Assembly (NCBI RefSeq): GCF_003790525.1
Contig: NZ_CP033635.1
Reading direction: 5' to 3' (one strand)
Length of the DNA: 64,000 nt
Source of the DNA: Escherichia coli
GTDB lineage: Bacteria; Pseudomonadota; Gammaproteobacteria; Enterobacterales; Enterobacteriaceae
Shown here piece after piece: positions 32,201-38,200 of this stretch (position 1 is its first letter; every line of letters begins with the position of its first letter). A program made the position numbers.

Positions 32201-35200
32201 ATCAGGCCATCAAGCCCATTCATATTTTGCTCAATCACCTGAGTGACCGAGTCTTCTACTGTTTGCGCATCGGCACCCGGATAGGTAGCGCTGATGGTAA
32301 TGGTCGGTGGCGCAATCTGCGGATACTGCGCAACCGGTAAGTTCATGATCGCCAGACCACCTGCAAGCATCATAATAATGGCAAGTACCCAGGCAAAAAC
32401 CGGGCGATCAATAAAATAGTTAGCCATGAAAGTCCCCTTAAGCCTGCAACGTTATTGTTTCGATTCGGTGCTGGCGTTTTCCTGGCTGGAGGAAATTGCT
32501 CGTGCTTTGATACCCGGACGAATGCGTTGCAAACCGGAAACGATCACCCGATCGCCGGCCTGCAAGCCAGAGGTGACAACCCACTGGTCGCCGATGGCTT
32601 TGCTGGCTTCAATTTCGCGTAGCTGCACGACATCGTCTTTATCCAGAATGAGTGCCGTTGCTTTACCCTGGGCGTTGTGGGTGACGCCTTCCTGCGGCAC
32701 CAGTAATACATTCTGGCGGCTACCTTCATCCACTAATGCCGTGACATACATGCCAGGCAGCAAGTCACCATTTGGGTTGGGGAAAATCGCCCGTAACGTC
32801 ACGGAGCCCGTGGTTTCATCTACCGTTGGGTCGGAGAATTTCAGCGTGCCAGTCTGGCTGTAACGTTTACCATTTTCCAGATTGAGCTGTACTGGCGTAC
32901 TGCCCTGAACCTGTTTGATTTGCCCACTGGCGACCTCTTCTTTCATGCGCAAGAAATCCTGCACCGACTGCGTGAGATCGACATAAATCGGGTCCAGACG
33001 TTGTACGGTAACCAGCGAATCTGCCTGATTAGCGGTAACGAGTGCGCCGACGGTCACCGACGATTTCCCGCTGACGCCCGTAATCGGCGAGGTGACATTT
33101 GCGTATTGCAGGTTGATAGTCGCCTGTTCAACAGCCGCTTTGGCGACGGTGACATTGGCTTCTGCTTCATTCAACTGGGTGCGCGCGGTGTCGTAATCCT
33201 GACGGCTAACGTAGTTGGTCTTCAGCAACGATGCCTGGCGGTTAAAGGTGATGCGGGCATTGCTGGCGGTAGAGAGCGCTTTCGCCAGCGAACCTTTGGC
33301 GGAGTTCAGCTCTGCCTGTAAAGGCGCAGGATCAATCTGATACAGCGAATCGCCCTGGTTCACTTTATCGCCTTCGATAAAGTTGCGTTTAATGATAATA
33401 CCGCCCACCTGGGGACGTATCTCGGCAACTTCATAAGGAACGGTTCTACCGGGCAATTCGCTCAACACATTGACCGAACCGGGGGAGAGTGTGACGACAC
33501 CGACCTCAGGCGTCATGGCGGCGGCGTTTTCCGCCGATTTGTCATCGCAGGCGGTGAGCATCGCGCCGCAGAATAACAACGGTATTAACAGTTTTCTTCT
33601 TCTGTTCATTTTAGTCCCTGAAAATTCTTGAGAAATAACGGTTCTTTAAATTGCGCGCGAGGAGAGATATGAGGGATTTACAGACCAGCGGCATAGTGGG
33701 GTTGTCAGCCAGTAAGATGGGATGCAAGCACAATGATCGACATGGTGAGGTCAACGACAAAAAAAATGTTGCCGTTCTGCCAACAGTTTCTGCCAGCATT
33801 CGGGCAACGAAGGGTTCTACTGGTGGATACACATACCAGGGGAATAAAGTCGTTTTCGTCTCTCCTTCAATAATCACCGGGGGTATTGAAATCAGCATCT
33901 GCATCCCTCGTCATGCCAGCCATCAATTTCAGTTGCTTATGTCCTTACTAAAAATAAGATGTGATACCCAGGGTGACGATGTCGCTCATACGTCTTAATT
34001 TCAGCTTGTACATAATGTTGAATTTCTGAATCTTTAATGTTTGTTGCGAAATGTTGAGCGTTGACGTGATATTGCTTTCATTTTTGTTTTTCAGAATCAG
34101 TTGCATAATTTTGAACTGATTATGTGAAAAACATAGTTGTGAATTCTTATGGGGCAAGTGTTTACCATAAGTAATCTCAAGAAGATTTTTGATACTTTCT
34201 TTACGGCTGACAAAATAAATAGGCGCTTTAGCTTTTAGTTTACTGATGTGATAAGGTGCCAAAACAATAATTCTCTCGGCATCTAATTTCTCCAGAAATT
34301 TAATCGCTTCTTCATCAAGGATATGATTGTGATAGGTATCAATGATAACCTTGAAGGGTTTATTGCCTACTTTTTTGATCTCTGACAGGGAATTGATTTT
34401 TATCATTTCGTGATTATCTTTCAACTGCCAAAAGCCCTGTAAAAGAAAAGAATCTTTCGTCATGAGAAAAATCATAACTTGCTCCTTAGCCGTTATCGTT
34501 TCGAACATGTCATCCTTTTCATTATTTACATCCTTGTCCGAATCGTTGTTCAATATAGTAAACGCCTATAAGAACTTTGCCCTTCGTGAACTAATACGTC
34601 TATTAACACTAATCAATACTTCAGATTTATCCATCACGCACTCCATATATTGATCCTAAGTAAAATTCCTGGTTGTTATCAATTTGTAAATGATAAACAA
34701 AAAGTTAACGTTTGCGGATTACTGCCCAAGAATAAGTTATCAATAACCAGTTTGTGATCTCTGAAGAATATTACTAAAGTTAAAATGTAATCCGATTTAA
34801 ATATCGAGTCTCCTTGTTTCGACTTAGGCTGGCAATTGGATTGCCAGCTTTCTTTTAACGCATTGAAATTACCTGAGTAAATAACTCATTCATGTCTTCA
34901 GGTTTTTATATAGCGTCTGGAGACACGGATATTTATGCAATGTAATCAACGCCAGCTGCAAAAAAATGAACCCGGATTACTTATTTAACCGCCTATAGCA
35001 TCAACGCTTACAGAACTCTTTGTTCACTTTCCCACAGCACTTTTAAAACATTAAACCTGACCACGGAAAATATCAGCCATGATAATGTTTGAAATGGCTA
35101 ATTTGCCATGGAATGAAAAAATCAGATTAAATTCAGTAGGTTGAAATAATCAACAGCAGGCAATTGTTTCAATGATAGTGCGTAATTGAACTGAAACACT

Positions 35201-38200
35201 GTATAGCTAAGAGAGTATTAACTGGATCATAGTCACTTAATGTGACTATGATCCAGGTGGAAATAGGGATAATTATTGCTTTTTAACGAACAAACTGGCG
35301 AAGCTGAACAGACTGGCGGCGCTAAATATCAGTTCAATTCCCACCAGTGTGGAAACCAGCGTTACCGACACCATCGGCGTAGCACCAAGGAATATCCAGG
35401 CAATGACGATATCCAGCACACCAATAACGAGCTGTAGCCAACTGCCTTTCATTGAACGCTGACGATACCAACTCATCAGGCGAATAACCCCTGCCACACA
35501 GAACAAACCGGCAATAAATGCCGCAATGGCAAAAATGCCCAGCTCTGGTGCGCGGATGAAGAAATAGCCGATCAATAAATAGGCGACTGCGACGAGGAAA
35601 CCGGATAATACCGGCCAGAAATTATGACTGCGGTTGCTGAATAACCCGACAATAAGCGCAATACCCGAGCAGATTAATAATGCACCCACTACTGTGCTTA
35701 AAATATCGCCAGAGACGAACGGAAAACTGATACACAGCAACCCGACGATAAACAGCAGCACGGCAATAAACTGGATTGCTCTGCGATGTTTTTTAAGCAT
35801 CTCCAGATCAAACTTCAAAATTGTTGCCTTATCTATATATAACATAGAACCACCCTATAAAATTAAGAAGAAAATCCCCTGCTATCAATCTATGCCAAAA
35901 ACGCGTGTAAGAATGCAGTCGATTTAATAAAAATTTCCTAATTACAGTATCTGATGCATCTGTAACTCATTGTATTGAAATAAAAATATCTGATTTTGAT
36001 ATTTTCCATCAACATGACATATACAGAAAACCAGGTTATAACCTCAGTGTCGAAATTGATTCGTGACGGCTCTTTCACTTTATAGTTGAGGATATTACGA
36101 TGAAAAAAGTATTAGGCGTTATTCTTGGTGGTCTGCTTCTTCTGCCAGTAGTGAGCAGTGCAGCGGATGCACAAAAAGCAGCTGATAACAAAAAACCGGT
36201 CAACTCCTGGACCTGTGAAGATTTCCTGGCTGTGGACGAATCCTTCCAGCCAACTGCAGTTGGTTTTGCTGAAGCACTGAACAACAAAGATAAACCAGAA
36301 GATGCGGTTTTAGATGTTCAGGGTATTGCAACCGTAACCCCAGCTATCGTTCAGGCTTGTACTCAGGATAAAAAAGCCAGCTTTAAAGATAAAGTTAAAG
36401 GCGAATGGGACAAAATTAAGAAAGATATGTAATTCCGGGAATGCGTTACATCGTATTTCCTTGCATATTGAACAGGCCGGAATATCTTCTTTAAAAGCAG
36501 CTATTCCTCCTGTTTGTATATAATCTCTATATTGAATGGGTTACAAAATGAACATTGCATCTCTCCGTAAAGCGTTTATTTTTATGGGCGCTGTAGCGGC
36601 TTTGTCACTGGTGAACGCACAATCTGCGCTGGCAGCCAATGAATCCGCTAAAGATATGACCTGCCAGGAATTTATTGATCTGAATCCAAAAGCAATGACA
36701 CCAGTTGCGTGGTGGATGCTGCATGAAGAAACAGTATATAAAGGTGGCGATACCGTTACTTTAAATGAAACCGATCTCACTCAAATTCCTAAAGTGATCG
36801 AATACTGCAAGAAAAACCCGCAGAAAAATTTGTATACCTTCAAAAATCAAGCATCTAATGACTTGCCGAATTAATAAGGTACAAGTAAAAAGGAGTAGCA
36901 AGTTGAGCCATCTTGCTGCTCCTTTTTGCATTTTTATATGACAGCAGAATTTATTATACGTCTTATACTCGCGGCAATTGCCTGTGGCGCTATTGGCATG
37001 GAAAGGCAAATGCGCGGCAAAGGAGCAGGGTTACGCACACATGTATTAATTGGCATGGGAAGCGCCCTGTTTATGATTGTTTCGAAATATGGTTTTGCTG
37101 ACGTGCTGTCTTTAGATCACGTCGGACTGGACCCCAGCCGTATTGCTGCTCAGGTGGTGACGGGCGTCGGGTTTATCGGTGCAGGTAACATTCTCGTTCG
37201 TAACCAAAATATTGTAGGTCTGACGACGGCAGCGGATATCTGGGTGACCGCCGCCATTGGTATGGTTATTGGCAGCGGTATGTACGAACTGGGTATTTAT
37301 GGTTCAGTGATGACCTTGCTGGTGCTGGAAGTCTTCCATCAATTAACCTTCCGCCTGATGAACAAAAATTACCATTTACAGCTGACATTAGTGAACGGTA
37401 ATACGGTATCAATGCTCGACTGGTTTAAGCAGCAAAAAATAAAAACGGATTTAGTTTCGTTGCAGGAAAATGAAGATCATGAAGTGGTCGCCATTGATAT
37501 CCAGCTTCATGCCACAACGTCGATAGAAGATCTGTTGCGATTATTAAAAGGTATGGCAGGGGTGAAAGGCGTTTCAATTAGCTAATCTGTATAGTTATTT
37601 ATTCGCAGGAGTACCAGTGCGGTACTCCTGTTGGTTTTAATGATCGAGGACGATCAGTGGTGAATGGTTGGCAGGATCTTTAAGTACGGTAATATCCGCG
37701 CCGTAGAGCATTGTCAGCGCCTGCTGTGTCAATACGTCCTGCGGCTTACCATTTGCGATAACCTTTCCTTTTTGCATTAATACAACACGGTCTGCATAAC
37801 GCGCGGCAAGATTTAGATCGTGCAATACGCAGCAAACATTGAACTGCCGTTCGTGAACTAACTGGCGTAATAAACGAAACAAGTGCTGCTGATGGTGAAT
37901 ATCCAGCGCCGAAGTTGGTTCATCAAGAAATAACCATTTCGGTGAGGGAGTAGGTTCCCAGAGTTGCACCAGCAGGCGCGCTAATTGCACGCGCTGTTGT
38001 TCACCACCGGATAATTGCCGATAGTCGCGGTTTGCTAACGCCTGACAGTCACATAACGCTATTATTTGTGCTGTTTCATTATCCTGATTACCAGTACGAT
38101 GCGGATGCCGCCCCATCTGGATAACTTCTTGTACGCTGAATGGAAACGCCATGTGGCTATTTTGACGCATCACGGCCCGGTGTTTCGCCAGTTCAGTAAT

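What the first reader, a model, noticed from the sequence alone, without database searches (positions are those of the whole stretch)
34476..35272. Large non-coding control region upstream of gadE with a plus-strand terminator
About 800 bp without a credible ORF separates hdeD from gadE, consistent with the multi-promoter sensory region described for gadE. Within it, a clean plus-strand hairpin plus T-tract (34828-34856) lies antisense to the probable gadE leader. That would fit a cis-antisense sRNA such as ArrS, but the assignment is from memory and uncertain.
Basis: partly seen in the sequence, partly recalled or inferred. Interest (0 to 1): 0.35.

Follow-up and report, generated by a model that had tools for sequence, protein, structure and literature searches.

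The report
Known ArrS sRNA upstream of gadE
The hairpin is the terminator of ArrS, a small antisense RNA already described in E. coli, and it sits in the well-studied control region of the acid-resistance regulator gene gadE, so the finding is correct but ordinary.

Summary
The observation and the interpretation both hold. The window is E. coli; the spacer is 100% identical to strain SMS-3-5, and the window runs in reverse orientation relative to K-12.

- **Spacer.** gadE is at 33948-34475 (-) and hdeD at 35273-35845 (-). The spacer 34476-35272 is 797 bp (798 bp in K-12), 32-38% G+C, and has no annotated or credible ORF.
- **Identity.** The K-12 gene arrS (b4704, 70 nt) aligns to window 34787-34856 on the + strand with 69 of 70 bases identical and no gaps.
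- **Terminator.** The stem is 34826-34850 (11 pairs, loop UGG), followed by UCUUUU. It folds at -15.2 kcal/mol (z -4.15). The one difference from K-12, A to G at 34827, turns an A-U pair into G-U.
[quoted passage not shown] It depends on sigma-S and GadE and is linked to RNase III processing. With Hfq it also acts in trans on cfa and fepA, and the fepA effect needs this terminator's loop.
- **Distribution.** It occurs in 5411 of 5426 complete E. coli genomes and in other Escherichia species.
- **Why it goes unannotated.** No Rfam family matched it, and none of the non-K-12 RefSeq records listed annotate it.

Verdict: already known, low interest.

The parts
34476..35272 (-). hdeD-gadE intergenic region, the gadE control ('sensory integration') region. 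797 bp, 32-38% G+C.
   Evidence: ORFs and annotation; 97% identical to the K-12 spacer; G+C content; literature.
34787..34856 (+). arrS gene, encoding the 70-nt small RNA ArrS. 69/70 identical to K-12 b4704.
   Evidence: K-12 annotation; gap-free alignment; fold -19.9 kcal/mol, z -3.42.
34826..34850 (+). ArrS intrinsic terminator stem-loop: 11 pairs, loop UGG at 34837-34839. The second pair is G-U here and A-U in K-12.
   Evidence: The loop is reported as required for fepA repression.
34851..34856 (+). U-tract (TCTTTT) of the ArrS terminator and 3' end of the RNA.
34787..34796 (+). 5' end of ArrS (GUAAUCCGAU), containing C7 (34793). Mutating C7 abolishes activation of cfa in K-12.
   Evidence: Sequence; C7G mutant and compensatory test in the literature.
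34752..34780 (+). Putative arrS promoter, inferred by hand: TTGTGA (34752-34757), 17-nt spacer, TAAAGT (34775-34780, -12 to -7), with C at -13 (34774).
   Evidence: Read from the sequence. It matches 8 of 12 positions, below the scan's 9-of-12 threshold. TTTGTGAT and ACTAnAnT are kept in all 9 Escherichia sequences. Sigma-S dependence comes from the literature. An RpoS-holoenzyme SELEX peak lies in this spacer.
34787..34856 (-). Segment of the gadE T3 5' UTR (-312 to -381) that is perfectly complementary to ArrS.
   Evidence: Follows from the coordinates and the published T3 start at -566; literature.
34792..34799 (-). Mapped position of the T2 gadE mRNA 5' ends (-317 and -324). They lie opposite ArrS nt 6 and 13.
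   Evidence: Published positions transferred through the gap-free part of alignment A1; accuracy about +/-1 nt.
35021..35105 (-). P3 promoter core and T3 start (-566, about 35041). A conserved island across Escherichia species.
   Evidence: Published position; 89-99% identity to the window in all species, while both flanks are diverged.
34599..34599 (-). Mapped position of the T1 gadE mRNA start (-124).
   Evidence: transferred through.
33948..34475 (-). gadE coding sequence (175 aa).
35273..35845 (-). hdeD coding sequence (190 aa).

Best explanation
Window 34787-34856 (+) is arrS, the gene for the 70-nt small RNA ArrS, and the hairpin plus T-tract at 34826-34856 is its Rho-independent terminator.

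**Transcription.** ArrS starts at G34787. The likely promoter is a weak sigma-S-type one, TTGTGA-N17-TAAAGT with C at -13; this is my inference from the sequence. It runs away from gadE and towards hdeD.

**Action in cis.** gadE is on the other strand, so ArrS is perfectly complementary to nt -312 to -381 of the long gadE mRNA T3, which starts at P3 (about 35041). The published model is that sigma-S and GadE induce ArrS at low pH and in stationary phase. ArrS then pairs with the T3 leader, and RNase III processes the duplex. This yields a shorter, more stable T2-type gadE mRNA, and therefore more GadE and more acid resistance. Because GadE activates arrS, the circuit is a positive feedback loop.

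**Action in trans.** With Hfq, the 5' end of ArrS (including C7) pairs with the long cfa 5' UTR and masks an RNase E site, which activates cfa. The terminator loop of ArrS is needed to repress fepA.

**Shown versus taken from elsewhere.**
- Shown here: identity, position, strand, ends, terminator structure and conservation.
- From the K-12 literature: expression, regulators, targets and the RNase III link.
- Inferred: that this strain behaves the same way, and the promoter hexamers.
For: - Annotated arrS in K-12 lies at the homologous place, on the strand opposite gadE.
- 69/70 identity without gaps, with the same 5' and 3' ends. The surrounding spacer is 97% identical to K-12.
- Strong strand-specific terminator: 11-bp stem plus UCUUUU on the + strand, -15.2 kcal/mol, z -4.15. 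The - strand forms a 9-bp hairpin but has no U-tract after it, so it should not stop T3.
- The only substitution relative to K-12 keeps the stem paired (A-U to G-U; -15.5 versus -15.2 kcal/mol).
- The 70-mer is present at 95% identity or more in 5411 of 5426 complete E. coli genomes.
- ArrS nt 1-41, which were not part of the search pattern, are 90-98% identical in E. albertii, E. whittamii and other Escherichia lineages. Those nearest K-12 still match downstream of 34856, but in E. albertii, E. whittamii, E69 and E1V33 the DNA beyond the 3' end is deleted or unalignable.
- Position 7 is C, as the published C7G seed mutant requires.
- Literature support: antisense to the T3 5' UTR and sigma-S/GadE dependent; an RNase III cleavage site in ArrS; T3 to T2 conversion; Hfq-dependent trans action; cfa; fepA through the terminator loop; arrS promoter occupancy.
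- The published T2 5' ends (-324/-317) map inside the ArrS-complementary segment.
Against: - No transcript data exist for this strain.
- No Rfam family matches the locus, so identification rests on homology to the single curated K-12 annotation.
- The promoter matches only 8 of 12 consensus positions and was not called by the scan.
- No GAD box (GadE site) lies within 3 mismatches of the consensus in the spacer.
- The literature itself says there is no direct demonstration that ArrS directs RNase cleavage of T3.
- An arrS deletion had no acid-shock phenotype in one study.
Confidence: 0.95

Rival explanations
1. The palindrome matters mainly as a structure in the sense RNA, that is, a hairpin in the gadE T3 leader on the - strand. 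It would act as a processing or stability element, and the + strand T-tract would be incidental.
For: Being a near-perfect palindrome, the - strand also folds: 9 bp, -13.5 kcal/mol, z -4.41. It lies within T3, upstream of the T2 5' ends.
Against: - The T-tract follows the stem only on the + strand.
- A + strand RNA with exactly these ends is annotated and studied in K-12.
- In E. albertii, E. whittamii, E69 and E1V33, conservation stops at the + strand 3' end, at or within 10 nt of 34856, which fits an RNA gene boundary better than a leader element.
- This reading does not exclude ArrS; both could be true.
Confidence: 0.03
2. The inverted repeat is a protein-binding site: a sigma-54 -24/-12 look-alike (TGGCA-N6-TTGC on both strands) or an operator for a dimeric regulator of gadE.
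For: The core sigma-54 pattern matches at 34830-34844 (+) and 34832-34846 (-). Many regulators bind this spacer.
Against: - The two matches are one palindrome counted twice, against 1.39 expected by chance in the window; 43 of 100 shuffles do as well.
- The text search of a genomic SELEX study of minor sigma factors found hdeD and gadE mentioned in only two places, its RpoS and RpoH tables, so the spacer has a peak for those two and no mention under RpoN.
- No paper linking sigma-54 to arrS was found.
Confidence: 0.01
3. The sequence is an arrS homologue but is silent or non-functional in this strain, a conserved relic.
For: An arrS deletion gave no acid-shock phenotype in K-12 under the conditions tested. 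The region is H-NS/StpA silenced in some media.
Against: - Near-invariance across 5411 E. coli genomes and across Escherichia species, next to highly variable DNA, argues for selection.
- The promoter region and seed are identical to K-12.
- The single substitution preserves pairing.
Confidence: 0.02

Closest known systems
ArrS (arrS, b4704) of E. coli K-12
   Same: Same locus, strand, length (70 nt) and ends. 69/70 bases identical, with the same terminator loop (UGG) and the same 5' seed including C7.
   Different: One substitution, A41G at window 34827, changes an A-U pair at the base of the terminator to G-U. The window's exact 70-mer occurs in 1299 of the 5411 E. coli genomes with a match. 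E. albertii also has G at 34827.
GadY, the cis-antisense sRNA between gadX and gadW
   Same: Another acid-island sRNA documented as a cis-antisense regulator in the acid response pathway. RIL-seq data likewise show it acting in trans through Hfq.
   Different: Different locus and sequence. From my own knowledge, not tested here: it is antisense to the gadX 3' UTR rather than to a 5' UTR.
GadF (Rfam ES205), the sRNA from the gadE 3' UTR
   Same: Encoded in the same gadE transcription unit (window 33759-33830 by Rfam), and it also activates cfa.
   Different: It is on the sense strand and derives from the 3' UTR rather than being an antisense RNA. It has an Rfam family, whereas ArrS matched none.
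RydC sRNA
   Same: Binds the same site in the long cfa 5' UTR and masks the same RNase E site.
   Different: Unrelated locus and sequence. Deleting rydC gives an acid-sensitive phenotype; deleting arrS did not.

Membership tests
ArrS sRNA | [quoted passage not shown] | tested here: met
   Window 34787-34856 (+) lies -312 to -381 from the gadE ATG on the - strand, and the published T3 start is at -566.
ArrS sRNA | Sequence homology to the curated K-12 arrS (b4704) over its full length. | tested here: met
   69/70 identical with no gaps and both ends aligned.
ArrS sRNA | Rho-independent terminator at the 3' end with the loop implicated in fepA control. | tested here: met
   11-bp stem, loop UGG, tail UCUUUU; -15.2 kcal/mol, z -4.15. 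The loop sequence is identical to K-12. Its role comes from the literature.
ArrS sRNA | 5' seed able to pair with the cfa 5' UTR (C7 essential). | tested here: met
   Nt 1-40 are identical to K-12 and nt 7 is C34793. The cfa target site in this strain was not examined.
ArrS sRNA | Transcription dependent on sigma-S and GadE and induced by acid. | tested here: inconclusive
   The 71 bp upstream are identical to K-12. A sigma-S-like -10 (C-TAAAGT) can be read at -13 to -7. It matches only 8 of 12 consensus positions, and no GAD box lies within 3 mismatches in the spacer.
ArrS sRNA | A stable transcript of about 70 nt that binds Hfq and is cleaved by RNase III when paired with gadE mRNA. | not testable with these tools
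   Known only from K-12 experiments.
gadE 'sensory integration' control region | A spacer of about 798 bp between hdeD and gadE carrying P1, P2 and P3. | tested here: met
   797 bp, 97% identical to K-12, with a single 1-bp indel. The P3 core 35021-35105 and the P1/leader block are conserved across Escherichia. Promoter positions come from the literature.

The most novel reading that the evidence does not exclude
The long gadE leaders (T2 and T3, but not T1) carry a 26-codon upstream ORF on the - strand (34646 to 34566). AGGA lies 7 nt before its ATG, and it is intact in all 9 Escherichia sequences compared. If it is translated, ArrS-directed processing of T3 could act on gadE through translation of this leader ORF, rather than through mRNA stability alone.

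A related point is that in non-coli Escherichia, homology breaks exactly at the ArrS 3' end, and about 165 bp of T3 leader (34857-35020) is missing or replaced. The ArrS/P2/P1 block and the P3 core therefore behave as separable modules.
Probability: 0.08. Interest if true: 0.4.

Novelty: already known. Interest (0 to 1): 0.08.

Why it matters
It adds little. ArrS and the gadE control region are among the best-studied parts of the E. coli acid fitness island.

- **Practical point.** No Rfam family matched ArrS. It is annotated in the curated K-12 record but in none of the other RefSeq E. coli records listed in the searches. A reader of raw sequence, or of a standard annotation, sees an 'empty' 800-bp spacer.
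- **Allele.** This strain's version carries a pairing-preserving G-U variant in the terminator stem. It is otherwise identical to K-12, so K-12 findings should transfer.
- **Cross-species comparison.** It shows that the RNA and the P3 core are conserved islands in otherwise fluid DNA, which agrees with their published functions.

Tried and rejected
- **Rfam search.** A search of 33000-37000 at E <= 1 gave no family in the spacer. It found only ES205/GadF in the gadE 3' UTR and a chance miRNA hit. ArrS therefore cannot be confirmed through Rfam; I used the K-12 annotation instead.
- **Promoter scan.** It found no arrS promoter at 9 of 12 matches or better. The hexamers I give were read by hand and match 8 of 12.
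- **GAD box search.** Allowing 3 mismatches, the only hit was a perfect box at 25171-25190, and none lay in the spacer.
- **Sigma-54 reading of the palindrome.** Rejected as being at chance level and unsupported by the literature.
- **Original ArrS papers.** The Aiso et al. 2011 and 2014 papers are not held in the library, so their content is cited second-hand.
- **Leader ORF in the literature.** A search for a gadE leader ORF found nothing relevant.
- **Ascertainment caveat.** The cross-species loci were retrieved by an exact 29-mer covering ArrS nt 42-70. The invariance of that part is therefore by ascertainment and is not counted as evidence.
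Full report
**What is there**

The window around the finding is the E. coli acid fitness island, in reverse orientation relative to K-12.
- mdtE is at 32452-33609 (-), gadE at 33948-34475 (-) and hdeD at 35273-35845 (-).
- hdeA, hdeB and yhiD follow on the + strand.
- The spacer 34476-35272 is 100% identical to strain SMS-3-5 and to many other E. coli, and it occurs in 5413 of 5426 complete genomes.
- It is 797 bp and 97% identical to the 798-bp K-12 spacer. The only length difference is one base in an A-run.
- It has 32-38% G+C.
- ORFs of 20 aa or more within it are at most 63 aa, and none is annotated in K-12 or SMS-3-5.

**The hairpin**

The terminator scan reports a + strand stem at 34826-34850. 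It has 11 pairs (5 G-C), the loop TGG and the tail TCTTTT, ending at 34856.
- As RNA, the 33-nt element folds at -15.2 kcal/mol, against -6.6 +/- 2.1 for shuffles (z -4.15).
- The reverse strand also forms a 9-bp hairpin because the sequence is palindromic. No U-tract follows it, so it looks like a one-way terminator that would not stop gadE-sense transcription. That last step is my inference.

**Identity**

The K-12 RefSeq record annotates ncRNA arrS (b4704, 'small regulatory RNA ArrS') at 3657985-3658054, on the strand opposite gadE and 312-381 nt upstream of its ATG.
- That 70-mer aligns without gaps to window 34787-34856 (+) with 69 of 70 bases identical.
- The single difference, A41G at 34827, converts the second pair of the terminator stem from A-U to G-U. 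The predicted stability barely changes, from -15.5 to -15.2 kcal/mol.
- The full 70-nt RNA folds at -19.9 kcal/mol (z -3.42), with two small 5' hairpins and the terminator.
- No Rfam 15 family matches the spacer at E <= 1.
- None of the non-K-12 RefSeq records listed annotates anything under the match. This explains why the locus looks empty outside the curated K-12 record.

**Published function of ArrS and the region**

The spacer is described as an unusually large 798-bp gadE promoter region. Transcript 5' ends lie at -21, -124 (T1), -324/-317 (T2) and -566 (T3), and more than ten regulators act on it. It is the '750 bp sensory integration region' of Sayed & Foster 2009 (cited).

What the literature reports for ArrS:
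- Overexpression leads to the more stable T2 mRNA at the expense of T3. Direct proof of ArrS-directed cleavage is still lacking.
- A transcriptome-wide study found an RNase III cleavage site in ArrS.
- RIL-seq classified ArrS as an Hfq-associated sRNA that also acts in trans, with targets enriched in acid-response genes.
- It activates cfa by pairing at the RydC site and masking an RNase E site. This was shown with a C7G mutant and a compensatory target mutation.
- It represses fepA in a way that needs the loop of its own terminator.
- Recent work places protein-occupancy peaks at the arrS promoter and lists ArrS among RpoS-regulated sRNAs.
- A genomic SELEX study lists an RpoS-holoenzyme peak in the hdeD-gadE spacer.

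**Mapping the literature onto the window**

Alignment A1 has no gaps over the gadE-proximal 640 bp. Position -d therefore maps to window 34475 + d.
- T1 (-124) maps to 34599.
- T2 (-324/-317) maps to 34799 and 34792.
- T3 (-566) maps to 35041.
- ArrS covers -312 to -381.

The T2 5' ends thus lie opposite ArrS nt 13 and 6, inside the duplex that ArrS would form with T3. This fits the processing model, but it does not exclude a separate P2 promoter.

Nucleotide 7 of the window RNA is C (34793), as the published C7G mutant requires. This is an independent check on the 5' end.

Upstream of 34787 I read TTGTGA (34752-34757), a 17-nt spacer, then TAAAGT (34775-34780), with C at -13. That is a weak promoter with a sigma-S-like -10. 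It matches 8 of 12 positions, below the scan threshold, so it remains an inference. No GAD box lies within 3 mismatches in the spacer.

**Conservation**

The window's 70-mer is found in 5411 of 5426 complete E. coli genomes, always at 95% identity or more. The window's exact allele is in 1299 of them.

An exact search with the terminator 29-mer in one genome per species found E. albertii, E. whittamii, two unnamed Escherichia lineages and two divergent E. coli. It also found a probable contaminant contig.

In the alignment of these spacers:
- ArrS nt 1-41, which were not part of the search pattern, are 90-98% identical to the window.
- The arrS promoter side is 72-100% identical.
- In E. albertii, E. 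whittamii, E69 and E1V33, homology stops at 34856-34866, that is, at the ArrS 3' end.
- In those same four lineages, 34857-35020 is deleted or unalignable (13-63% identity).
- Identity returns to 89-99% over 35021-105, which contains the T3 start.

The RNA gene and the P3 core are therefore conserved islands in variable DNA. The invariance of nt 42-70 in this set is by ascertainment and is not counted.

**Alternatives considered**

- The palindrome could act as a structure in the T3 leader. This is possible alongside ArrS, but it does not explain the + strand U-tract or the conservation boundary.
- It matches the sigma-54 core TGGCA-N6-TTGC on both strands. That is at chance level (2 hits against 1.39 expected). 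The text search of the SELEX study found hdeD and gadE mentioned in only two places, its RpoS and RpoH tables, and no mention under RpoN. No paper links sigma-54 to arrS.
- ArrS could be silent in this strain. This cannot be excluded without RNA data, but the conservation makes it unlikely.

**Verdict**

The feature is the known sRNA gene arrS inside the known gadE control region. Novelty: already known. Interest: low.

The only mildly new material comes from side observations. One is the exact coincidence of the inter-species homology break with the ArrS 3' end. The other is an intact 26-codon ORF, preceded by a Shine-Dalgarno sequence, in the long gadE leader. Its between-species differences are all non-synonymous, and it overlaps the P1 promoter, so I give it a low probability of being functional.

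Noticed in passing
window 33759-33830 (-): Rfam ES205 sRNA (RF02754) matches at 106.5 bits against a gathering score of 86. This is GadF, the sRNA from the gadE 3' UTR, annotated in K-12 as gadF b4718 (91 nt, corresponding to about 33759-33849).
   Followed up: partly
window 34856-35105; loci L003, L006, L007, L008: In E. albertii, E. whittamii, E. coli E69 and Escherichia sp. E1V33, homology to the window stops at 34856-34866, the ArrS 3' end. The stretch 34857-35020 is deleted or replaced, and the P3 core 35021-35105 is conserved again at 93-95% identity in these four. The T3 leader length therefore varies between species while ArrS and P3 are kept.
   Followed up: partly
window 35222-35256: A 15-bp perfect inverted repeat (CTGGATCATAGTCAC ttaat GTGACTATGATCCAG) lies 17 nt after the hdeD stop and is probably the hdeD terminator hairpin. 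E. albertii and related lineages carry compensatory changes, GGATC/GATCC to GCCTC/GAGGC. The terminator scan does not call it because the T-tract is weak.
   Followed up: partly
window 34566-34646 (-): A 26-codon ORF (MECVMDKSEVLISVNRRISSRRAKFL) lies in the gadE long leader. It is present on T2/T3 but not on T1, and AGGA sits 7 nt before its ATG. It is intact in all 9 Escherichia sequences, but every difference is non-synonymous and it overlaps the P1 promoter. No literature was found.
   Followed up: partly
window 34830-34846: The ArrS terminator palindrome matches the sigma-54 -24/-12 core (TGGCA-N6-TTGC) on both strands. This is at chance level: 2 matches against 1.39 expected.
   Followed up: yes
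window 25171-25190 (+): A perfect 20-nt GAD box (TTAGGATTTTGTTATTTAAA) is the only match in the window within 3 mismatches. It presumably belongs to a gad promoter elsewhere in the island.
   Followed up: no
window 33669-33998 (+); L002 1694-2023: RefSeq SMS-3-5 annotates a 'hypothetical protein' (WP_016234986.1) antisense to the gadE 3' end and to GadF. K-12 has no such gene, so it is probably a spurious call.
   Followed up: no
locus L005 (NZ_JAUFQN010000010.1): An 8.6-kb contig in a 'Flavobacterium paronense' assembly carries the E. coli hdeD-gadE spacer at about 95% identity with scattered 1-bp indels. This is most likely contamination of that assembly.
   Followed up: no
window 35106-35272: The hdeD-proximal 170 bp or so of the spacer is much more diverged from K-12 (about 85%) than the gadE-proximal 630 bp (95-100%).
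   Followed up: partly
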